63,808 bases of DNA from Paraspadella gotoi. Taxonomy: Eukaryota; Animalia; Chaetognatha. The DNA is taken from positions 25,028,688 through 25,092,495 of the forward strand of contig CM119263.1 of NCBI GenBank assembly GCA_051294375.1. Direction: 5' to 3'. A program made the position numbers and the translations under genes. The stretch's first letter is position 1. Every line of letters begins with the position of its first letter. The notes under the pieces were generated by a model, which did not search any database, had not been told where the DNA came from, and was given only the letters and a program-made list of their open reading frames with translations. Shown in pieces: positions 4,797-47,343 of this stretch.

Positions 4797-13689
<8,893 letters not shown>

Positions 13690-16936: not shown

Positions 16937-19900
16937 ATGAGGAAAACAATTACAAAACAACCGAATATGAGCAAGCTGATTTACAAACTGGTCTTTCAAT
17001 TAGCCCTAATTGGTTTGGCTCAGAGCGTTTGTCAACTGAAATGTTTACACCAACAAAACATAAGCCGTCGCACAAAGTACCACACATTCTATTGCCATTG
17101 GGTGGGAACAGGAGGACAGACCCTTCTACCGGGATGCGTGACACTCGACCGGGCGGTCATGAGTAACATAACCACCGACTACCATCGCTGTCACAATCTG
17201 AAAAACTGCTTCCGGCGGAAAAACTGTACAGATATGTCGGAAATAAGTTTCTCTGGCATCGGCCTGGAGAGATTGGAATCCGACTTTCTCGCGGAGTTTC
17301 CGGGTCTCGAAAAACTCAACTGTTTCAACAACTCGATTTCGTTCGTGGGCGTGGGGGCTTTTAAAAACTCCCGTCTGCGGTATATAAACTTAAAGGGGAA
17401 TCGCATCTCGGAATTTTCCACTCATTTCGAAAACCTAACTAAAATGAACGCTTTGGATTTGAGACTCAACAATCTCTCAAGGTTGTCGCCTAGCATGTTT
17501 CGTGGAATGAAAAGGTGAGTTCAATATGTAGATAAATTTTAAATGTACATATCGCATTATCCTTTATAGCTTTATAAATATGTCATGCCTAGAGTTCCGA
17601 TAACCGTTAAAAGTTCACGGTTATTAACGGTTAATTATAATTTTAACTTAACCTTTAATGTATTTATTTTAACGGTTAAATTCGGTTAATTTTCAAATAC
17701 GATTTTTGTTATTATTTGTTAGGAAATCCCGTCCTCTCTTATTCTCCTCTCCCTTTCTCACCTTTTTCAATGTTTTTTTTTCCTTTTTTATTATCAACCC
17801 CAATCTTTTTTCTTTCTTAATCTCTCTTATTCTTTATTCCCCTAACTTTATACCCTTATGTTCCTTTCTTTTTCTTTCTCTCTTTTCCCCTCCTTCTTTC
17901 TCTCCTTTCTTTTCTTTCCTTTTTTTCCGCCCTTCCAGTATTTTTTTTCGTTTCAACTAATTTTATTCATTTATATCTCAGAAACAAAGTTTGAAATAAT
18001 TGGCAATAACGATTTATTATCAAGATGAAAATGTACATGTTTTGGCTTTTTTACAAGCCTTCTTCAGCGTCAATATAGTTTGTGAAAATATTAGACAGAT
18101 TTTGTGTAGAAGAAAGAGAAAGAGAGAGAGAGAGAGAGGGGGAAACATAGAGAGTGCAAAGTTTCTCTGCTTCTCTCTCTCTCTCTCCCCATCTTCTACA
18201 CAAAATCTCTCTAATAATTTTACAAACTAAATTGACGCTGAAGAAGGCATGTAAAAAATCCGAAACATGTACGTTTTCATCTTGAAAATAAATTGTTGTT
18301 GCCAATTATTTCAAACTCTGTCTCTAATCTCTAATCACAACGAAAGAAAGAATTACATAACACAATGCATTTACATCAAATAATATTTTGAAATATAATA
18401 TATATGCAAATACATACATTTTCTTTCAAATTAAATTCTTACATGAAAAACTTTTTATTCTATTTTGTTGTTAAAAAAATAAAGAATTATTCTTTTTCTT
18501 TCCCTCTTTAGAACGAACAAAGAAGCAAATGAAATAAAACCGAATGAATAGAAAAAAATTAATAAAAAATTATTATAAAAAATTTAAGAATTAATAATAG
18601 GAGGGAATCTTTAAAAAGACATATAGACTAACTAAAAATATCCTTCAATGATGATATACTTTTTAAACGAAAAAAAAAATATTAATCAATAACTCTTTTG
18701 ATCAATAGCTCAATCAATAAACCATTCAATTAATAAACTAATATTCATATTTTTATTTATAATTATGGTCATGTTTTATGAAAGACTAACAACTAGAAAA
18801 ATAATGAGGAAGAGAAATAGAGAAAGAGAAAGCGAAAGAGAGTATTATGGCAACAGCCGGGTTGCCTGTGATGCCCATTGGGATGGGGCATCTCACTGTT
18901 GGCTTTGGGGCTTCCGACCCTCAGTGACGCCTCCAGTCACTGGCGCGGTTACCCTAGGACGGTCTCGCTTTGCCAACGCAGAGGGAAGTCGTTAGGACTG
19001 TGGATGGAACACTACGCCTGGGATGGTGTGTTCCCCTCTGAGCCAATGGATTTGGCTGAAGGATGGTGGACGTGAGGCGGTGTGAATATACCGCCACAGT
19101 ATTTTAAATTTAAAGTATTGTGATTAAACTTTCTTTCGTTGTGTTTTTAGATATTTAAAATTAAAGACAAAATTCAAAAGCACTGATGAAGGCTTGAATG
19201 AAAGCCGAAACTTGTCTGTACAATAAAAATAAAATCATTGCTGTATCAAGACTTTGTCTTTAATTTCAAATTTAAAGTTGAATTATAAAATTAACCGATT
19301 TTAACGGTTAACCGTTAAAAATGTTACTTTTAACGGTTAAGCGAATTTCCTGAAAAATTAACGGTTAACGAAACTCTAGTCATGCCAAAAATGATGATGG
19401 AACGAATTTCTATCTACGTATTGCACATTGTAGTGATGAACTCAAAGACTGCGTGTAAACTTAAAAATAGTTAACTTAAAAATATTTCACAATTATTTTT
19501 TAAAAGAAACTTTGTTATGGCACTGCATTATGCAAATATGAGATTTTCGTGAGGAGGCTTGGGTTTTATTTCAGAATCTATTCTGTTAATCGTTAAAATT
19601 GTAGAAATCAATACAAATACCGTTTTTAGGTTGGGAAAACTGTATTTATGGGGAAATTCCTTGAAGACTATGGATTTTCTGTATGATTTGCCGAAACTCC
19701 ACGAGTTGTCCATCCAGTTCGACGATTCTTTCTCTTCTTCTCTCCAAGACTTTCCTCATTTTGCGAGGATGACGCGTCTCGAAGTCACTTTCGACTCCTG
19801 GGCCAACGTCACCATTTTTAACGGGACTCATCGCCGTCTTATCGATCTTAGGATGAATGGCGTGAGCGCCCTGGACGAAGCCTTTTTCGACCAGACGCCC

Positions 19901-22900
19901 GCCCTCCAATTTCTCGTAGTCAATAACGCCAAACTTGGAAACGTAACAAAGAGGCTTTTGTCTCGACTGGAAAACCTCGCAAGTCTTAATATTAACAACA
20001 CGGGAATCGAGTTTGTGGAGAAAGGGGCTTTTGCACAATGCCGCAGACTTCATCAGTTAAAGATGGGAGGAAATCGGTTGCGGGCCATCGATAGAGCCAC
20101 ATTTGAGGGATTGCATCAACTTATCTACGTGGATCTGAGCTTCAATGACTTGACGGAGCTTGGGCCCGACGCATTTTCCAGCTTGAGCCAAGTTAAGATG
20201 ATGAATCTTGGTTTTAATCGCCTTAACTTTATCGACCCTTCGGCCTTTGTCAAGACAATCGAAATTCAACACATAGATCTTGAAGCCAACAATCTGACTG
20301 AATTAAATCTCCCCCGACTGAGCTCGTTGAGGACGCTCATTCTGGACAACAACTCCTTCGTGATTCTCGATACGAAGTTGATGAAGAATCTAACGAGTCT
20401 TGAGAGAATTTCCATCTTGCACAACCCGCTGAAGAGAATTCCGGCGCCGTCCTTCATCTTCGCCCAGATCGTGGACATCAGTTTCGGGTGCTGCTCCGCG
20501 AGGTACGAAGAGAACGAGCGTCTTCAGTGTCACGACACGTCTATCAGGGTGGACAAGAACGCGCTGAAACTTTCTAACTTTTTCCAAGGGAATCGAATGA
20601 TGAGAAGGGTCAGGATATTGGGTTGTGTCGACGATTTTCACGCCGACCACTTGGTCATTGAAACGAATGAGTTCATCCTTCGCTGGAACAGTTGGCGAAC
20701 TTCTCTGGGGAACCTAGATTTGAAAAATGTAGGAGACAATGCTATATTTGACATAAGGAATAACGACATATACCGAATTAACAATAGACAGTTTCCCAAC
20801 ATGAAGGCAAAACTGCTCGATCTTTCACACAACCGCATAAGAGAAATAAATCCTAATGCCTTCGCCGATAGCAGCATAGAACACATTCGTTTGAATGGGA
20901 ACGAGCTCAAAACCCTTTCAATTATATTGAATTTGGAAAGTCCAGCCATTTTTCAGTCAATCGAATTACAAAATATGAGTTTGGAAAGTTTCTCACTCAC
21001 AGCGAAAGATGGAGCCTGTAAGCAATATTTGTCTCTGGATTTGAGCCATAATCAAATAGAAAATATGAATAGCATTCAACTGCAAGGATTCAAACATTTT
21101 AGTACAATAAATGTCAGCAACAATAGAGTTAAAACCTTTAATTCTGATGCTTCATTATTTGACATTGAAAGTATTGACAACTTTGACATTAGCAATAACT
21201 CGTTGAAAGTTTTACCAGAAGAGATACTGGATATGAAACATACATTTATCAAGGCTGATGGAAACGAATGGGATTGCTCCAAGTGTATTAATGTGTACCT
21301 ATTCGCTCATGCAAAAAAATACATGGACATTCAAGGCATGACATGTTACAACAATGTTCCTTTCAGTTTGAATGCGACACTCAACCAGTGTTTGATTGAA
21401 GAGATATACATTCCTTACCCAATTGTTTCGATTGTTTTTTTAACAATCCTAATGAAAGTAATCCATTCCATAAACATATTGCGATTAATGAGAAAATACA
21501 ATGCGTACCAAAAACTTTGCTTGAATAGTTTGAGCGCGAGAAAGAAATTTGTAGGAAAATCAAAGCTACAGCAAAAATTAAATCATAATAATATTTTAGT
21601 CTTGTATGGATTTGCTACCGAATTAAATCTCAAAACATTTTTTTTGTCGGGTTATTTGTTCACAGAAACGCCATACAGCAGCCTTCAAGAAGCGTTGAAT
21701 ATGTTCAATGACAAACAAATTATCTTGGACAGGGAAGATCTTTGTAAGCAACTTTTAAAAGCTATTGATTACCTTCATTCCTCATCACCTCCAGTCTACC
21801 ATTTGGGGCTATGTTTTGAATCTCTCCATTTGGCAGGAAAGGCCTCCGATTGGACTTTGAAGCTGAGCAATTTTTCAACTGCCCAAGTACCCGGGTCATT
21901 TGACCAGTGCTATGCGCTCCGCGATCTCCACGACGCCGCGGATCTTATTTCTTTGATGATGCAGCCTTCGACGATCGAATTCAAGGTCCTCGCCTCCGCT
22001 CTGCGCCATGGGCTCTTTGCTGCAAAGGCCCTGACGTCGCCCGCCTTCGTTCCCATCAGCACTCGCATATCAATGATACAACAGATGAGCGAAACCCTCA
22101 AGCGCTGGAACAAATTAACGCCCAATGCGCAGGCGCGGATCCCCGGATTCCAAATGGTGGAAGTCAACTCGAGCCTAGTCATAGGAGGTCGTGGCTCCTG
22201 GAACAAACTCTTTGCTCGTGAAATCATGGAAGAGTTTGGCTTTAATCACAAGGGCTATAGGACGACCAAGTTCATCGACTTGATTCGCTTCGTGCGTAAC
22301 ATCATTGCTCACGCCCAGGATCACCCGGACCTTATGTTGAGCGCCTTGGGCGCATCGACTCCCACCGACGACCAGTTTTATTCATTCTTCTCGAATTTGT
22401 TTCCTTACTTTTATCTTCACGCTATGCGCATTCACGAAAAAATTGAAAATACTAGCGGGTTTGACGATGACATCTACTTTTGCGAGTATGGGGAGCACGA
22501 GAATTCGGCTAACGTGGCAGGGCTGGCGGACGGATCGGTACTCAGGCTGGACGATGAAAGCCACGTCCATGTGACCTTTTCGTATTTCGACCCGGACGCC
22601 ATGTACTCGGTCTCAATTGCCAAAACGTTAAGTTTTCATGAGGGAGAACCGAGGTCGAGGGTGGACGGATCTGACGTCGTTAAAGAAATCATGGCTGACG
22701 TGAACACAATTTGGCCCCAAACGATCGACGAAGGCCTCGACGGCATCATCGCCAAGAATCACCTTGGAGACAACATTTTCGTCAAAGGGGCTACCAAACA
22801 AAACGCGGGAGTATTGGAAGGGAGCACCGTTGAGATTTCCAAGATGCAATGCCTCGTCCACTCGCCCTCGGTACCGAGAGGGTCCGGCTTTAAGTTTATC

Positions 22901-23095
22901 TGGGACTATCATTCCAAGAGCAACGTGGAAGCTTTAAAGGGGAAGGTCATTCTGCGACTTCGCGAAGTGGGGCATGGAGCGGTTCGTAAGGAGCAAATCT
23001 CCGTCTATCGAAACGGAAAGAAACTCGCGGCATCCGACAACATTCTCAAATTGGATTTTTCTGGCTGTCCGTTTATTGTGGAGTGCGGATCTTAA
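16937..23095 (+). CDS. LRR-ectodomain, single-TM receptor with cytoplasmic pseudokinase + KEN (IRE1/RNase L-like) RNase domain and C-terminal ubiquitin-like region (2 exons, ~1340 aa)
   Basis: Exon 1 is 16937 (or 16967)-17514 (AAAG|GTGAGT) and exon 2 is 19630-23095 (TTTTTAG|G); they join in phase (MK-R-LGKLYLWGN). Signal-like MSKLIYKLVFQLALIGLAQSVC; many LxxLxLxxNxL repeats; LRRCT-like GNEWDCSKC; TM IYIPYPIVSIVFLTIL (~21404-21465); kinase remnants HNNILVLYG, KQLLKAIDYLHS, LKLSNFS; KEN motif YRTTKFIDLIRFVRNIIAH...FYSFFSNLFP. Confidence 0.85.
17980..18325. mobile_element. Palindromic (inverted-repeat) element with a hammerhead-ribozyme-like motif in each arm; Penelope-like pseudo-LTR remnant
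   Basis: Left and right arms of ~170 bp are reverse complements. The right arm has GACG-CTGAAGA-AGGC..TCC-GAAAC-ATGTA-CGTT (18234-18275) followed by AATAAA; the left arm has the mirror copy with GAAA mutated to AAAA. Confidence 0.7.
18846..19097 (+). repeat. Dispersed GC-rich multi-hairpin repeat, copy 2 (inside the hAT element)
   Basis: Six local hairpins, e.g. GATGCCC..GGGCATC, CAGTGAC..GTCACTG, GGCGGT..ACCGCC; flanking AGTATT direct repeat. Confidence 0.75.
19180..19219 (+). ncRNA. Minimal type I hammerhead ribozyme motif
   Basis: GCA-CTGATGA-A-GGCTT(GAATGA)AAGCC-GAAAC-TT-GTC-TGT: intact CUGAUGA and GAAA core, stem II, GUC cleavage triplet at 19214-19216 and a short stem I. Followed by AATAAA and flanked by the inverted repeat AAATTAAAGACAAA/TTTGTCTTTAATTT. 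Confidence 0.65.
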
Positions 23096-24825: not shown

Positions 24826-26913
24826 ATGGGCGTATGCGGCCTTTTCGAATATTGCGAGCTTCACCGGAGGGAAGTTTCCACGCGAGTCGATCTGCTTGAC
24901 CTCCAGCGACCGTTCAAGCACCGACCCGTGGAACTTCTGGTCGACTTGAAAGATTTCGAGACGTTCGTCGTCGACAGCGTCATCGATCGCGCGACTCTCG
25001 TGGAATCGAACGAAGAGAACGATAGAATGATCAGTTGTGGCGGCGACTACGACAAATACGATTCATTTGTGCAGGTATACTTTTTATTGAAATTCTTGGG
25101 AAGTTAAAAAATTGGTTTTCCTCGTCCCCCCCCCGGAAAAAAAAAAATAACGGCAACTAATTTGTAGGGCTTCATTTCCACCCTAAAAAAACTGAAAATT
25201 CAACTGCGCTTTTACGCGACAAAAACGCTCATTGACGAAGAAATCCCTGGCCGCGTCCTTGATCGTTGTACTGCGCGTACATCAAAGCGTTGTGCCTTCA
25301 TAGAGGGCGTTCGGCAGTGGCTCGAAAATCCCGGATCCGAGGAGGAAAACGATTGGCGTCCCTCGAAATGCCTTCGATCTCCGCTCCTACGAACGCAGGT
25401 GTTAAAATCAATCCAAGAAGCCGGCGCCGTGGTCGTCGTTAATGTAGTCAAAGAGACGACGTCGTTGGCGACTGAATTAAGTCGGAGACGCGACGCGTTG
25501 GCCATACTCGCTCGCGCCGAAGACAACGCCATAGTAAAAGGCTCTAGGTTCATCCCTTTCGCCTGGTTCGACGTCAGGGACGATCTTGGAATCCGAACAA
25601 AGAAATTCGCCTCTCTCCAGGTCCTTTTAAGTATTTGAGAAATATTCATACAATCATTCTTTCCGTATAACTTGATGGTTTAGGCATAGTAAACATACTA
25701 AACATACCACAGGCATTCAATCCTGGACCACATAAACTTTTTTGTGACGTGATCACTCCGGAAAAGTTGGCTTTTAGCATGGGTCTTTCTAATCCACAAC
25801 TTCTCGCCGAAGTCGCCATCTTAAAGGGAAACAATTTTACCCACAAAATAATGCGCAACGTCCGTCTCCGGTGAGGCCTGACGTAAATAGGCAGTCATAT
25901 TAATTTATCCTACATATTTAATTTTTTAATAATAACCCTGCACCAGAGATAAGCTTCGACTCCCCAGGACACACTGGATAGAGGACTTCGCGGCTTGGGT
26001 GGCGCGACATGGAGAGATCGAGTCCAACGCGTTTCTGTATCACCTTATGAGAACCGACTTAGACTTTCGCGAGGCTGTGTCGGCGTCGCGGCGTCTTTAT
26101 TGGGCGTCGGCGTCGTCTTTTTTCCAACTCCCGTCAACGGATACGCAACTACGAGACGCTATCGACCGTCGTGTCAATGCTGTTTCCGGCGCCTTTTACG
26201 TGAGATTCCCTCCTGATTTTCTTGCAATGCATCACGGCCTCTATCGACCGATCGGATGTACTCTGTACGGAGAAAAGGACTCTTCTGGTGGCATAATCGT
26301 CGAACAAACGACGTCGGTCGTTCGTCGCCTTCGTAGCCTCCTCTACGACGTCTTGGTCCCGAGCGGACAGACAACTCGCGAGATCTTCGACCGACCCGAC
26401 GCCGACGGGGTCGTGATCGAAGACGTAAAAGCAGCCGGGATCTTGGAGTCTCTCGTTAATTTGAGTCTAAAGTCGAAGCCTGATAGGACAAATGAGTTAA
26501 CGAGGGCCTTGAAGTACGCCGCGGACGTTGTAGGCGACGAAAAATCCGCTAATGATTTTCTTCAAAGGTTTGGATTAAGAAAGTTATGTCTCTTGTGGTT
26601 GTTCCGATTCTCCGCTCAAGGATTCTTTCTCGAAAACTCCGAACGATACGCCGTTTACGAATCGATGACCGGCGATCATCTTTACGAAACCGCACACGCA
26701 CCTCGTCCTTCGTTTAGATGCTGGTCTGTCTTCAATCTCCTACAAGTTGTTTACCTCCATTTGTGGTGGCTGACTCTCGCTCTCGAACTCGACGATCTCC
26801 CTCAACCGGCCGACATTTTTAACGGACAATCTTTTGTCCATTTGTTTATGCTTAACGATTACGACCGGAGTAAACTTGAAAGTCAGGCTTTATTTAAGGC
26901 TACAGTGGCATGA
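24826..26913 (+). CDS. Asteroid (ASTE1)/FAM120-like XPG-type PIN-fold protein (4 exons, ~608 aa)
   Basis: Exons 24826-25074, 25168-25620, 25713-25870, 25947-26913 are in phase. N-terminal MGVCGL, LLVD, CGGDYDKYDSFVQGFISTL (Asteroid-type GGDYD motif), H3TH-like LAEVAILKGNNF, C-terminal QPADIFNG typical of this family. Confidence 0.75.
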
Positions 26914-32083: not shown

Positions 32084-33565
32084 ATGTTTTTACGTCTTCC
32101 GTCTAAAGTCCGAGAAAGAATGCGTCCAGTTAAGTATGTGATACCGCGGCGATTGGAGAGAGAGACAATATTGCAAAGACGATTAGAACGAATATCGATT
32201 CGGGGACGTCCGGTCTTGCCACGAGTTATCTATCGACCTCGCAGAAAGAATTTGACAGAAAACATACTTACAGAATTATATAATCTGCCAGGTATTGGGT
32301 CATGGTTAAGATGTGTAAGCAACGAACAACTTTTCTTTAAAAAAAATAAACACAAACCTGTTCTCAGACGATGTCGAGTTATCTTCCCTGGAGCTGTTAA
32401 CCTTCGGAGACTTGGAGAACATCATGATGGCTCAGTTGAGCAAGGAAGCTAGCAGAAAGGATTTTCCCGATCATCCTTGCCCCGAAGCAATCTCGCTAAT
32501 CCGAAAAGACGAGACAGAGAGCGTCCATAAAATTGTGTCATCCGTCGACGATGTAACTGGATCAGTCGTCTTTGTTGGGAGCGGGATCGAAAAACTTCCT
32601 ACTAACGATTGTACTTTATTCAAAACGGAGCCTCGTGGTAAAGTTAACATCAGATACGTATTTATAACGGCTATTTATTAAAAAAAATTCCGTGTTTTCC
32701 ACACGTTTTAGGAATCAAGGAAGAGGCGAACTCTGTATTAGCGAATGGAGGTTCTTCGAATGTGATACACGAAAATGGGGTAGACGTAAAAAAGGAATCA
32801 CAGTTTCATGGTTACAGCGACTTCTTAAACAGTGACGCCGATCCTTTCGACGATGCTAAGGATGGCGTAAACAAGCCAGACGACGAGAGTAGCCTTCCAC
32901 GGGGAGACCCTTTAGTAGTCGGTCAATCGGTTTTCCCGATCGGCTCCACGTCTTTCCCTTCTTTTCGCCCAGGCTCAGACACCCTCTCTTTTAACCTTTC
33001 GAGATTATTTGATTCTCCCGAAGCCTTGGTCGCTTCCGCGCCAGAAATACCTTATATATTCACGCGGGACGTAATCGATTCTTGCTCTGTCCACGCTGAC
33101 GTTGCTCCGCGCTTCACCCTCGTCGCGGATTCGATGGATTTCGTCAATATTGGCGGCGCCAATTATCGGATGGTCTTCGCCGCCGAAACCAAAAAGAATG
33201 TGCTCAACCTCAAGTGGAGTTCTTGCGGTGTCGTGACTAAACAGAAAAAATCCGAGACGTTTATGAACTCAAGAAAGAAAAGCAAAAATCGCAGGAAAGC
33301 CTTTACTAGCTCCTTAAAGAAATCATTTAATAGGAAACTGGACTCGTCCTCTTTCAAACCTATCGAAAAATCGCATAATATTAATAGGATGGAGATGACT
33401 CCAACGCCAAAGTTATTTAGTCGAGTGTCGGTGCAGAGGAACGTCCTTTACATTAAAAACGGGGACAAATTCGGCTACAAACGGATGGCAAAAATGTCCT
33501 CTTGCTCTAAACCTGGTCGGCATTGTTGTTGTCCTCTCAAAAATAATCAATCGATTTGTCGTTGA
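32084..33565 (+). CDS. Unknown protein, probably 3 exons; Arg-rich N-terminus, acidic middle, Lys-rich C-terminus
   Basis: ORF blocks 32084-32291, ~32368-32637 and ~32712-33565 have coding-like composition and are separated by short GT..AG introns (CCAG|GTATTG, TTCTCAG|, TTTTAG|). No recognisable domain. Confidence 0.55.
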
Positions 33566-35702: not shown

Positions 35703-38581
35703 TCAACTTAAAAAATAGAGTCGCACATATACGAATCGGCTTGTTCGCTCCTAATTACTATCAATTAAAATAGCCCCAATGAGAAATTCCAAGAACTGAC
35801 CTTTTTTCTTCGAACACGGGCGCATATCGAGGCAGGGGCTCGGAAGTTCCAAGCAACGATTTAGCCTTTTGTTGAAGAAGAGGAAAATGATAGGGTTGAG
35901 CGTTGAGCTAGTCCAGGCGATTAAATTGGCGCATTTATAAATGAAGAGAGAACCTAAAACGGAAATAAACCATTATTAATTTTTTATTAATAATCTTTTA
36001 TCTAATATTTTTTCGCAGTATAATTTATCCCTTTAATTTTTTAAAAGCTCAAAACCGCCAGGAGAACATTGACAGGGTGAAAGTCGCTGAAAGAGTCCAT
36101 TCATAAATCTTTCCCTCGCGAAAAAAAAAAATCTATGCATAATTGCATATGACGTTATAAAAAACGCAAGTCGTAAATTATCCGCCCGCTTGTTGATTCT
36201 ATCTTTGAAGCGTGGGAACAATTTCACGGGTCAAGGAAAATATGAATTTTACTGCGGTATATTAAAGTAGTTGCGGGAAATGCTCCCTTCAAAACAAACA
36301 AACAATATACTTTCAAAACCTATGAAAATTCCGACCTATGCATATATTCGATTAATCGGCCATAAGTTACCATTTTTGAATTAAAACGCATTGTGAGTAT
36401 TAATTTTTAAACATTTTAATAAAAAAATATTAACCTACTTTTATTTCCCAATAATATTGGCAATATCCTTTATTTACCTTGACTCTGAGTGTCTATGATG
36501 AGCAGCAAAAAGATAGGGTGCCAGAAGACGACAAAAGCGACTAACAGCAGCGTCAAGACCCTCAGTCGTCTCATGGCGGGGGCCTCGAGCCGGGCACGCA
36601 CCGCGCGCGTCTTTGACGAATCCGTCAGCATCTCGGCGTCCACAGGACCGACTGTCATCGAGGCGGTGGACAGGAGATGCAATGTGTGGTGGTAACACGT
36701 CATGCGGATGTCTGCCGAGGGGAGGGGGTAGAATAAGATTAGTTTTCAGTACAAAATGACCATTTTTCCATGATTAACGGCTGACTAATGTTCACTAATA
36801 AGCACCACGTCCTCACCTCGATGGTAACTCCGGAGAAAGTGAGCTGTCATCAAGATTCCGGCTACGTTTACCAAAATCCAGAACGTGTTGATAAAATACA
36901 TGCGAGAAATTGGATCTGAAGGAAATTAAATAAAAAAATGTTTCTGTTGTATGAAAAAATAGAAAAATAGTTAAATACGTATAGAGTAAGGCGTAGTAAA
37001 ATTTCTAAATTTAACTTTAATTAAAATTCTAAAAGTGAGGAACGAACAACATTATACTAATGAACATATATATATAAAAAAAATTTACAATAAATTTTAC
37101 AATTTACGCAGTAGGCCATATTTATACTAGTACTAATTCAATAAATGTTAAAATTTCAAAACAGTTTTTTTAAAGTAGATTTGGATTTGTCATAAAAAGT
37201 TGATAAAAAGAAATATAACCCTTTTTGAAAAATTCCTTCATTAAGTGGGTCAAAAATTAAAAAAAGCTATATTTTAAGCTGAAAATTAACTTTTTATATA
37301 TTAAATATAGTTTTTTTAATTTTTAACCCACTTAATGAAAGAAATTTTAAAAATAATTAATATTTTCTTTTATCAACTTTTGACGAGGAATTCAAATCTG
37401 CAATCAAAATTAAGAAAAGCCTATTTTGAAATTTTTCGATTTTATAAGGATAGTACTATATATAAATATAGCCTACTGCGAAAATTAAAAAACATAAAAT
37501 AATTTTTTTTTACAAATTAATGTTTACTGATGGTATGTTGTTCATAATTTACTTTTAGAATTTCCATACGTAACTTTCACTACGCCTTAGTATAGAGTAT
37601 AGACTCTCACCCGAATTTTGTAGCTCGCAGTTCATTAGCAAACAGCTTCTTTGATCCCAACTTCCGAGTTTCCTGTTTTTAAGGTTTTCATTTAGTAGTT
37701 AAGTACATAAAATTCTATCAATAAATATGGAAATTCCATATCTTACTTAAACGTGTCGCTTGCGAGCAGAACGACGCCAAACAAGAGCAATCCGGTTCCG
37801 AACCAAAGGATGAACAGTCCGAACAGGATACACTTGCAAAGGGCGAAGGGGGGCACCGTAAGGTCGACGTCCATGTTACGGAGGTGGAAAAGTTCGTTGA
37901 CCACCATCGCTGCCATATTGAATATGGTCGTCGTTACGAAGTAGGCGTGGCTGACGCGTAGTTTTGTGCACAGCTTGAAGGCGGTAAAGTGGGCGGGGTA
38001 GGATTATGAGGTGATTTTTTTTTTGTGGACCGACTCACTTCGGGGATTGTGGGCGCGACGAAGTTGGCGGCAATCATGAGGTAGTAGAGAGACTTGGCGA
38101 GATCTAGGAACGCGTGGTGAAAGATGAAGGCGTTGGCTGCGTGACGCCAACGTTTCCGCGCCAGGATCGTCACCATCATGCAAACGTTGCCCAGAACGCC
38201 GAGAAGCCCTGCGATGAAGAGGACATTAGACGTTCTGCAGCTTCTTTTGTTCTTTGATATGTGAAAATGCTGTTCTCTAAATATTTTAGCCAAAATACTT
38301 GAAAAAAAAATAACGATACTACTACTTCATTTATATCGAAACCTATATTTTATTGTCACCAGAAAAAATAATTTGAAAATCGGTACTGATAAAAGTTTTT
38401 TCCAATTTTTAATTTTGTTAGCCTTTCCTCACTAAAAACTTTCATAATCCGTTTTTTAGTTAACCATTCCGTTACCTAATGCCAGCAGGTACTGCGTGTC
38501 TCCGTTGGCTGTGAACACTACGAACATCTTGGGTGCACGCGCGCTCGTGTTGATCGGCCGCTCCAGCAACGCGCTCTCCAT
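35703..38581 (-). CDS. Class A (rhodopsin-like) orphan GPCR, tentatively SREB/GPR85-like; about 8 exons; terminal exon uncertain
   Basis: TM1 GLLGVLGNVCMMVTIL, TM2 ANAFIFHHAFLDLAKSLY, TM3 ending AMVVNELF, TM4 FILWFGTGLLLFG, ECL2 Cys (WDQRSC), TM5 FWILVNVAGILMT, TM6 AFVVFWHPIFLL, TM7 AWTSSTLNPIIFLFFN, in order across GT-AG-flanked exons. Confidence 0.8.
36987..37589. mobile_element. hAT-like AT-rich MITE in a GPCR intron
   Basis: TIR TAAGGCGTAGT(A/G)AAA; perfect 8-bp TSD GTATAGAG; internally quasi-palindromic. Confidence 0.85.
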
Positions 38582-46211: not shown

Positions 46212-46509
46212 AAAATTCAACCTTTTTTTGTTTTGATAAAAAAGTGAGTCACGATAAGATTTTATGATCATCCTTCATTCTCACGCTCGACTTTTCATTA
46301 TGAAAACTTTTCACTTTTTATCTTCTCCTTTCGCAAGCTTCAAATTTACTATTTACCATAATCAATTAATCATCTGCGTCATTCTGTTATCAAAAAATCT
46401 GGGGACTCTGCCTTTCTTTTACTTTGTCCTTTTTTCTCCAGGTTTCACGAACTTTTTCCTTGTGCTTGTCCGGCGGAGACGGACTTACAAAATTTCACAA
46501 ATAATCAAA

Positions 46510-47343
46510 ATGCAAGCCTCCACCGCAGCTTCCAGGGCATCTGGGTGGCATTTTCCCGTGCCGAAGAAAGGGGTTGTCCTCGTCTTCCACGTCATCCCTA
46601 GATCGGAAGGAAGGTTCAAGCGTATGGTCATCGGCATCACACTCGACGGAGAACTTACAGCGAATCTGCCCACCTACCTCGATGCGAAGAACTTACGAAA
46701 GGTGTTGGAGAAGTTTTGGCACGAGAAGGATTTGTTCTTCTTCCGAGCCCCGCCCGAAGTGTATCGACATCTTACATCGCTCCGGGCGAGTGGCTACTTT
46801 AAGTCCTGTAACTCGTTAGAAGTTCCACTTTGGTGTGTTGGGACGGGGGAGCCCGTTGATTTGGTCCTGAGTTCCTCAACGAGGGCCATTTTGATGCCAG
46901 ACGCGAGTTCCGTCTCTGACTGGGCTAAGTGGCCGAAGAGCCCCGGCCGAACCGTGAGGGAAAGTGCAGGCGGCGTAGGGAAATGTCTTCTTATTTTGAG
47001 AGCGAACAGTGTTCGCCGAACACAGCGACGCAAGAGGCCCTTTGCTCTTAGGTGGTCATCTTCAGTGGCCGCTCGGCAACAGGATTCGTCCACCCAAGAT
47101 ACAGAATCGGGAAAGACTCGTCAATCTCGACATTTTCAGCGTCGCCGTGATAAGAAGCGTGCGGCTAAGCAACTACGCGCTGTCGACGAGCTTGGTGTCC
47201 CCGCCCACTCGTCGACGCCCAAGATTGCAAGATTAGTCTCGGGCAATTCGACGGTGGAGCAGGTTCAGGAGCAAGATGAAGACAATTCATTGAAGAGTAT
47301 ACTCTTCTGCTGCACCCGGCATCAGAGGCGGATATCGAGATAG
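46510..47343 (+). CDS. Intronless orphan ORF (277 aa), basic C-terminal half
   Basis: GC-richer open frame starting AAAATGC at 46510, preceded by a polypyrimidine/CAG acceptor at 46440 (probable 5' UTR intron). No family recognised. Confidence 0.45.
   Translation: MQASTAASRASGWHFPVPKKGVVLVFHVIPRSEGRFKRMVIGITLDGELTANLPTYLDAKNLRKVLEKFWHEKDLFFFRAPPEVYRHLTSLRASGYFKSCNSLEVPLWCVGTGEPVDLVLSSSTRAILMPDASSVSDWAKWPKSPGRTVRESAGGVGKCLLILRANSVRRTQRRKRPFALRWSSSVAARQQDSSTQDTESGKTRQSRHFQRRRDKKRAAKQLRAVDELGVPAHSSTPKIARLVSGNSTVEQVQEQDEDNSLKSILFCCTRHQRRISR

What the first reader, a model, noticed from the sequence alone, without database searches (positions are those of the whole stretch)
22060..22440. KEN/HEPN RNase catalytic motif appears intact (R-N-x3-H plus upstream Tyr)
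Seen: DLIRFVRNIIAH at 22277-22312, preceded by GY. Established knowledge: it aligns by eye to RNase L DLLKFIRNLGEH and IRE1 DLLRAMRNKKHH, whose R, N and H residues and upstream Tyr form the active site (HEPN Rx4H class). Inference: the RNase has been kept while the kinase has decayed, pointing to RNA cleavage as the selected output.
Basis: partly seen in the sequence, partly recalled or inferred. Interest (0 to 1): 0.8.

Follow-up and report, generated by a model that had tools for sequence, protein, structure and literature searches.

The report
Toll-like receptor wired to an RNase
A gene of a probable invertebrate animal joins a Toll-like leucine-rich-repeat outer part and a predicted membrane helix to a dead kinase and an IRE1-type RNA-cutting domain that keeps all four catalytic residues, so it likely turns a signal from outside the cytosol directly into RNA cleavage.

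Summary
The motif is at 22277-22312, inside a KEN (Ribonuc_2-5A) domain that scores 51 bits against a Pfam cut-off of 23.3. Its Tyr, Arg, Asn and His align with the yeast Ire1 catalytic residues Y1043, R1056, N1057 and H1061. The domain sits in a two-exon, 1337-aa gene: signal peptide, Toll-like LRR ectodomain, one transmembrane helix, truncated pseudokinase, KEN, a beta-rich domain and a C-terminal ubiquitin-like domain. A search of 1.84 billion proteins found an unnamed family. Of 24 relatives covering the motif, 24 keep Arg, 24 Asn and 23 His, and three have the same LRR-TM-pseudokinase-KEN layout. The family is split from canonical IRE1 with 100/100 support. A confident model (pLDDT 92.5) matches Ire1 (Z 18.8) and RNase L (Z 17.5) over both domains. 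One correction: the kinase is catalytically dead across the family but is not decaying. It is 36% identical to the ortholog, against 39% for KEN, so it looks like a retained scaffold. Best reading: a ligand-gated receptor RNase, probably for defence. Activity, ligand, substrate and expression are untested. Nine literature searches found no description of this layout.

The parts
16967..17514 (+). Exon 1: start Met, predicted signal peptide (about aa 1-21), Cys-rich N-cap, first LRRs (an in-frame ATG at 16937 is an alternative start)
   Evidence: Hydrophobic N-terminus; Pfam LRR_8 E 1.6e-11; aa 51-182 match residues 2-133 of P0002, E 3e-18 for the pair; Cys cap pattern shared with P0006
17515..19629 (+). 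Inferred GT..AG intron, 2115 bp, phase 2; mostly a terminal-inverted-repeat element (17590-19378) with an 8-bp direct repeat on both sides and nested high-copy repeats
   Evidence: Splice sites and open joined frame; inverted repeats; very high contig depth
19630..23095 (+). Exon 2: one open frame from the LRRs to the stop codon
   Evidence: of the listed exon-2 contigs of runs X5, X7, X8 and X9, one carries one different letter and none a gap
19630..21259 (+). LRR ectodomain with an internal Cys cluster (20483-20626) shared with P0002 and P0006
   Evidence: Pfam LRR_8 E 9.4e-37; best solved matches are the acid-labile subunit, TLR13, LGR4/5 and TLR3
21260..21391 (+). C-terminal Cys cap of the LRRs (LRRCT-like)
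   Evidence: Pattern found here and in P0002, P0004, P0006; the label is recalled
21404..21481 (+). Single predicted transmembrane helix followed by basic residues
   Evidence: Hydropathy peak 2.05 over 19 residues; equivalent helix in P0002, P0004, P0006
21494..22054 (+). Truncated pseudokinase: no Gly-rich loop, helix-C Glu to Lys, HRD Asp to Gly, DFG to NFS, no APE segment
   Evidence: Pkinase E 2.6e-4 over profile positions 45-145; alignment to WNK1; kinase fold over model residues 1-194; family counts
22055..22447 (+). KEN / HEPN RNase domain (Pfam Ribonuc_2-5A)
22256..22312 (+). Catalytic set: Tyr1059 (22256-22258), Arg1072 (22295-22297), Asn1073 (22298-22300), His1077 (22310-22312)
   Evidence: Aligned to yeast Ire1 Y1043/R1056/N1057/H1061; their roles from PMC3149027; family conservation
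22448..22840 (+). Linker helix and a family-conserved alpha/beta domain; order of strands and helix resembles a beta-grasp, identity not established
   Evidence: Confident secondary structure in the model; 35/95 identical to P0002; no profile similarity to the last domain
22841..23092 (+). C-terminal ubiquitin-like domain
   Evidence: Family profile hits RAD23B E 2.9e-4 and ubiquilins; Pfam ubiquitin below cut-off in P0014, P0053, P0057; the window's own domain alone gives no Pfam hit

Best explanation
The gene encodes an LRR-transmembrane-pseudokinase-KEN-ubiquitin-like protein that likely works as a ligand-gated receptor ribonuclease, probably in innate defence. Shown: the domain order, the four Ire1-type catalytic residues, the loss of the kinase's catalytic motifs, and the conservation of this layout in a family separate from IRE1. 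Predicted: type I membrane topology, with LRRs outside the cytosol and the RNase inside. Inferred steps: (1) a ligand at the cell surface or in an endosome brings two LRR ectodomains together; (2) the membrane helices, which sit about ten residues before the first remaining kinase strand, pull the pseudokinase scaffolds together, probably without a nucleotide cofactor since the Gly-rich loop is gone; (3) two KEN domains form the composite RNA-binding surface described for Ire1 and cut single-stranded RNA near the membrane; (4) the result is loss of viral or host RNA and translational shut-down, rather than XBP1/HAC1-type splicing. The ubiquitin-like tail would regulate turnover or recruit partners.
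For: KEN domain above the Pfam cut-off. Y/R/N/H align with the residues that PMC3149027 assigns to catalysis; that paper also describes a composite surface made by two RNase monomers. R, N and H are 3 of the 4 best-conserved of 131 KEN-region columns (100%, 100%, 96%; median column 46%). The model (pLDDT 92.5, pTM 0.87) aligns 307 residues to Ire1 at Z 18.8, rmsd 3.5, and 281 to RNase L at Z 17.5, rmsd 3.1; the next entry is at Z 15.4 and covers the kinase only. The same LRR-cap-TM-pseudokinase-KEN layout is in P0002, P0004 (partial) and P0006, at three separate places in the tree. P0002 is 30% identical over 1173 columns. Kinase motifs among covering relatives: HRD Asp 2/8, following Lys 1/8, DFG Gly 1/10; only P0020 has all three. 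The ectodomain's best solved matches include TLR13 and TLR3. PMC3710099 links diversified KEN families to defence. The basic residue that Ire1 uses for stem-loop recognition (R1039) aligns with Asn here.
Against: No activity, ligand, substrate, localisation or dimer has been shown. LRR ectodomains are as typical of adhesion and hormone receptors: the best hit is the acid-labile subunit, followed by TLR13 and LGR4/5. Glycosylation sequons are 17 before and 3 after the membrane helix, but per Asn this is not significant (p 0.27). The membrane helix contains a Lys and a His. One subclade has His or Gln in place of the Tyr (6 of 24). Relatives were found by searching with this protein, which favours conservation. 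Only one copy lies in the window, and no genome was held, so an immune-type expansion was not shown. The sources of the relatives are unnamed, so paralogs cannot be told from orthologs.
Confidence: 0.6

Rival explanations
1. It is a second IRE1-like sensor of the secretory pathway: the LRRs face the ER or Golgi lumen, sense a client or a stress, and the RNase splices or degrades specific membrane-bound mRNAs.
For: The KEN sequence is closest to IRE1 among solved structures, and the topology would be the same as IRE1's.
Against: No IRE1-type luminal domain; instead a large capped LRR ectodomain. Long branch from canonical IRE1, 100/100. The R1039-equivalent basic residue and the basic residues after RN are not kept.
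Confidence: 0.17
2. It is a receptor RNase for an endogenous cue (development, self/non-self recognition or cell competition) that kills or silences the receiving cell, not a pathogen sensor.
For: LRR ectodomains of non-immune receptors score as well as TLRs. A single copy in the window with a recognisable full-length ortholog and almost no variation among the runs laid fit a conserved role.
Against: The family has many divergent members, mostly 21-40% identical over the pseudokinase, and one record puts the same module behind an LRR-Roc-like sensor (P0057), a pattern more like immune domain shuffling.
Confidence: 0.13
3. The KEN domain binds RNA or only dimerises, and the real output is signalling through the ubiquitin-like tail, as in a conventional receptor.
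For: The C-terminal domains are conserved (35/95 and 26/84 identical to P0002), and the Tyr varies in one subclade.
Against: Near-invariance of R, N and H against a median column conservation of 46%; the His contributes more than five orders of magnitude to catalysis in Ire1 (PMC3149027).
Confidence: 0.07
4. The layout is an assembly artefact or a silent relic.
For: A spliced transcript was not directly shown.
Against: LRR to KEN lie in one open frame of 1155 codons, covered by overlapping or adjacent contigs in four runs, and the layout recurs in three relatives.
Confidence: 0.03

Closest known systems
IRE1 / Ire1p (PDB 2rio, 3fbv, 3lj0)
   Same: Single-pass membrane protein with cytosolic kinase fold plus KEN; the same four catalytic residues; best sequence and fold match.
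   Different: LRR ectodomain instead of the luminal unfolded-protein sensor; dead, truncated kinase; C-terminal alpha/beta and ubiquitin-like domains; separate clade.
RNase L (PDB 4o1o)
   Same: Sensor, kinase-fold dimerisation domain and KEN (PMC10400998); fold match Z 17.5 over 281 residues.
   Different: No ankyrin repeats; membrane-bound; no sequence hit to RNase L chains; would need no 2-5A messenger.
Toll / Toll-like receptors
   Same: Signal peptide, capped LRR ectodomain with an internal Cys cluster, membrane-proximal Cys cap and a single membrane helix.
   Different: No TIR domain in the Pfam scans; the cytosolic part is itself an enzyme module.
Lineage-specific KEN expansions of Oikopleura and monocots (PMC3710099)
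   Same: Diverged KEN domains proposed as defensive RNases; a KEN-ubiquitin fusion is listed.
   Different: Described as solo KEN or fused to kinase, ankyrin, CCCH, UBI or BRCT; no LRR-TM form is listed in the passages read.
Plant and oomycete LRR receptor kinases (PMC10463195)
   Same: LRR-TM-kinase layout.
   Different: No KEN in the passages read; here the kinase is dead and the RNase is the predicted output.

Membership tests
KEN / HEPN RNase domain (PF06479) | Profile score above the curated cut-off | tested here: met
   51.2 bits against 23.3
KEN / HEPN RNase domain (PF06479) | R-N-x3-H motif with upstream Tyr | tested here: met
KEN / HEPN RNase domain (PF06479) | Helical bundle packed on the kinase C-lobe as in Ire1/RNase L | tested here: met
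   Model residues 1-328 align to 3fbv, Z 18.8, rmsd 3.5, 307 aligned
KEN / HEPN RNase domain (PF06479) | Metal-independent endoribonuclease activity on dimerisation | not testable with these tools
   Needs an assay
IRE1 | ER-luminal unfolded-protein sensor domain | tested here: not met
   The N-terminal 770 residues are LRRs
IRE1 | Active Ser/Thr kinase (Gly loop, HRD, DFG) | tested here: not met
IRE1 | Falls within the IRE1 clade | tested here: not met
   Five IRE1-like rows form one side of a 100/100 branch in a 24-row unrooted tree; the 'canonical IRE1' label is mine, from Pfam scores
RNase L | N-terminal ankyrin repeats binding 2-5A | tested here: not met
   No ankyrin family in the Pfam scan of either exon
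RNase L | Kinase-fold domain followed by KEN | tested here: met
RNase L | Falls within the RNase L clade | not tested
   No RNase L sequence was held for the tree
Toll-like receptor | Capped LRR ectodomain and a single membrane helix | tested here: met
Toll-like receptor | Cytosolic TIR domain | tested here: not met
   The cytosolic part is accounted for by pseudokinase, KEN and alpha/beta domains
Ubiquitin-like domain | Profile or fold match to ubiquitin-like proteins (last domain) | tested here: met
   Family profile to RAD23B E 2.9e-4, with ubiquilins and ubiquitin following; modest, and the window's domain alone has no Pfam hit
Ubiquitin-like domain | Second beta-grasp (domain at 22547-22840) | tested here: inconclusive
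   Secondary-structure order fits; no profile match; the fold searches were filled by the kinase

The most novel reading that the evidence does not exclude
An undescribed family of one-component immune receptors in an invertebrate lineage: a Toll-like ectodomain directly gates a cytosolic RNase through a nucleotide-independent pseudokinase, with no adaptor, second messenger or transcription step. The same pseudokinase-KEN-ubiquitin-like module is shuffled behind other sensors (an LRR-Roc-like one in P0057), giving animals a receptor-triggered RNA-destruction response comparable to bacterial abortive infection.
Probability: 0.42. Interest if true: 0.9.

Novelty: new variant of a known kind. Interest (0 to 1): 0.78.

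Why it matters
The two well-studied kinase-KEN enzymes read an ER-luminal stress (IRE1) or a cytosolic messenger (RNase L, confined to jawed vertebrates according to PMC10400998). A Toll-like ectodomain wired to the same RNase would be a third input: sensing outside the cytosol coupled to RNA cleavage in one chain. It would offer a candidate for how invertebrates without RNase L use this nuclease in defence. It is also a natural test of whether proximity alone can switch on a KEN RNase when the kinase has lost its nucleotide-binding loop. The single-exon cytosolic part and a confident model make it easy to test.

Tried and rejected
Three word-indexed homolog searches found nothing; the exhaustive HMMER search did. 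Scans of metagenome and viral contigs gave no relative (95 and 13 pattern matches, none confirmed); the family alignment was too diverse for such a scan. A single-sequence fold was useless (pLDDT 34.6). Homodimer prediction of residues 1-350 of the cytosolic part: no verdict. Sequencing runs: no RNA holder listed. In one search the contigs of X7 and X8 look like one data set; one of them stops at 17512, two bases before the donor site, with 158 letters that do not fit there. That could be a spliced join, but no such joint is among the rows shown, so it is unresolved. The Atlas gave pseudokinase-like clusters for the cytosolic part (0.91-0.93, families inconsistent) and nothing from 0.9 for the C-terminal part. 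A recent chimera inside the kinase was considered, because GC3 is 0.59/0.38/0.63 with breaks near 20717 and 21902 (log-likelihood gain 28.5 against a maximum of 9.6 in 60 permutations). It was rejected as recent, since P0002 is collinear across both breaks. An ancient chimera (kinase N-half from a non-IRE1 kinase) stays open: the family's N-half profile scores four non-IRE1 kinases at 53-59 bits, three others at 24-43 and four IRE1-like rows at 14-29, but those kinases were selected by the same search. Tandem duplication of the two C-terminal domains was not supported; one search was uninformative because both profiles included KEN columns. The 'window' line of the spacing print matched an LRR position and was not used. 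No Rfam match in the window. No genome was held, so paralog number and dN/dS could not be obtained.

Full report
Observation. The stretch 22040-22459 scores 51.2 bits on Pfam Ribonuc_2-5A (cut-off 23.3, E 1.8e-13) and hits yeast Ire1 at E 8e-9 over about 135 residues. Tyr1059, Arg1072, Asn1073 and His1077 align without gaps to Y1043, R1056, N1057 and H1061. PMC3149027 (passages read) names H1061 and Y1043 as the acid-base pair and N1057 and R1056 as phosphate ligands; H1061 is worth more than five orders of magnitude and Y1043 about tenfold. The His column is the one changed in chain 3sdj. The short motif alone is common (3,096 of 20,000 shuffles); the longer pattern is not (3 of 20,000).

The gene. 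The motif lies in an open frame at 19559-23095. An upstream frame at 16937-17518 encodes a hydrophobic N-terminus and LRRs. A GT..AG intron at 17515-19629 joins them in frame into 1337 residues. The join is inferred, not read from RNA. It is supported by P0002, whose single frame matches exon 1 (E 3e-18 for the pair) and exon 2 (30% over 1173 columns) in order. Four runs were laid; their listed exon-2 contigs show one changed letter (21245, Phe to Leu) and no gaps. X5 may be a source of this DNA, and X7 and X8 look like one data set. The order is: signal peptide, Cys cap, 13 regular LRR motifs by pattern with an internal Cys cluster, a membrane-proximal Cys cap, one hydrophobic helix (aa about 775-800), pseudokinase (805-991), KEN (992-1122), a long helix, an alpha/beta domain and a ubiquitin-like domain. 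The host is probably an invertebrate animal. This is inference from introns, a rhodopsin-type GPCR fragment, a tandem array of amino-acid transporter genes and no CpG depletion (1.26). No genome was held.

The kinase is dead by design. Against WNK1 the helix-C Glu is Lys and the HRD loop has lost its Asp, Lys and Asn. DFG reads NFS, no APE follows, and the membrane helix ends about ten residues before the first remaining strand. In the fold comparison, typical kinases align over only 163-205 residues, mostly to model residues 1-194. Subdomain names are recalled.

The family. An exhaustive search with the cytosolic 534 residues gave 50 hits at E<=0.001 among 1.84 billion proteins. I aligned 36 of the 50 plus one cluster mate (A1). 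The 14 left out were P0009 (internally repeated; added in A2), five IRE1-like proteins and eight hits to the kinase part only. With the near-copy P0058 dropped, 24 of 36 rows cover the motif: Arg 24/24, Asn 24/24, His 23/24, and at the Tyr position Tyr 18, His 5, Gln 1. R, N, a Trp and H are the four best-conserved of 131 columns (median 46%). In the kinase, the HRD Asp is kept in 2 of 8 covering rows and the DFG Gly in 1 of 10; only P0020, a kinase-KEN protein without LRRs, keeps all motifs. P0002, P0006 (with its own signal peptide) and the partial P0004 have LRR-cap-TM-pseudokinase-KEN. P0057 has the module behind LRR and Roc-like domains, but its cluster also holds the two halves separately, so it may be an isoform or a chimeric assembly. 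In a 24-row tree of the kinase end plus KEN, the five IRE1-like rows are split from the 19 others at 100/100. The LRR-TM members do not form one group (2 changes; 1 not excluded), which fits an ancestral layout with many partial records. The tree is unrooted and has no RNase L.

With P0002, identity is 192/663 in the LRRs, 66/181 in the pseudokinase and 49/126 in KEN (KEN versus pseudokinase p 0.72; versus LRR p 0.034). Over six members KEN exceeds the pseudokinase in 14 of 15 non-independent pairs, but only by 32% against 28%. The pseudokinase is therefore maintained, most simply as a dimerisation scaffold.

Structure. With A1 the cytosolic part folds at pLDDT 92.5, pTM 0.87. All 36 rows that Foldseek printed (ranks 1-50, with gaps) are IRE1 or RNase L. 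Among 48,161 chains, Ire1 (Z 18.8, rmsd 3.5, 307 aligned) and RNase L (Z 17.5, rmsd 3.1, 281 aligned) lead and cover both domains. The family profile finds 16 IRE1 sequences and RAD23B among 17 hits. A C-terminal profile finds RAD23 and ubiquilin domains (best E 2.9e-4). The domain before it is unassigned.

Mechanism. Shown: layout, catalytic residues, dead kinase, family. Predicted: type I topology. Inferred: ligand-driven pairing of ectodomains brings pseudokinase-KEN units together and builds the two-monomer RNA-binding surface described for Ire1, probably without nucleotide. The Ire1 stem-loop residue R1039 aligns with Asn, so XBP1/HAC1-type specificity is unlikely and broader RNA decay is more likely. 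I put RNase activity at about 0.85 and the defence-receptor reading at 0.6. Against it: no ligand or activity is known, non-immune LRR proteins match the ectodomain equally well, the sequon bias is not significant per Asn, and no expansion in this genome could be shown.

Known systems and literature. It works like IRE1 and RNase L but fails their defining sensor tests, and it has a Toll-like outside without a TIR domain. Nine searches for such a layout (listings and abstract starts seen) turned up no description; the library lacks most subscription papers. PMC3710099 (passages, section 9 and one short supplement file) lists KEN with kinase, ankyrin, CCCH, UBI and BRCT, and expansions in Oikopleura and monocots; its additional alignment file was not seen. 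PMC10400998 (passages and section 6) sorts RNase homologs into ten clades with architectures drawn in a figure and an SI that I could not see, so an LRR form could be shown there; 'LRR' does not occur in its main text. PMC10463195 (passages) and PMC7333395 (one passage) describe no LRR-TM-kinase-KEN protein. Unchecked notes of this scan report other sensors fused to kinase-KEN in protists and sea squirts; look-ups by sequence found nothing like this family. I use those notes only as context: sensor swapping on this module seems recurrent, which makes this a new variant of a known kind rather than a new category.

Verdict. A real, intact KEN RNase in an undescribed Toll-like receptor layout, conserved in an unnamed family. 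Interest 0.78.

Noticed in passing
window 17590-19378: Most of the intron is an element with 21-bp near-perfect terminal inverted repeats and an identical 8-bp direct repeat on both sides (hAT-like, label recalled), holding a 163-bp inverted repeat (17971-18334) and a very high-copy 250-bp repeat (about 18845-19099).
   Followed up: partly
window 20717-21902: A block of low GC3 (0.38 against 0.59 and 0.63 on either side) inside the single large exon, covering the second LRR block, the membrane helix and most of the pseudokinase; unexplained, possibly old gene conversion or recombination between paralogs.
   Followed up: partly
window 42000-63800: Tandem array of at least four or five amino-acid transporter genes (Pfam Aa_trans), on the + strand.
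   Followed up: no
window 36473-38326: Exons of a rhodopsin-type GPCR on the - strand (7tm_1 E 3.9e-4 for one fragment).
   Followed up: no
window 13274-13528: Exon of an actin-related gene (Pfam Actin E 4e-10).
   Followed up: no
window 25936-26910, 32648-33562, 46258-47340: Three long open frames (305-361 aa) without any Pfam match.
   Followed up: no
P0057 / P0054 / P0052: An LRR-Roc-like protein with two hydrophobic helices occurs with and without the pseudokinase-KEN-ubiquitin-like module; possible alternative isoform or chimeric assembly.
   Followed up: partly
P0009, P0004, P0008, P0010: A subclade with internally repeated, degenerate pseudokinase-KEN-like units ahead of the intact KEN.
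   Followed up: no
P0020: Kinase-KEN protein with intact kinase motifs on the family's side of the tree (long branch); a candidate intermediate between IRE1 and this family.
   Followed up: partly
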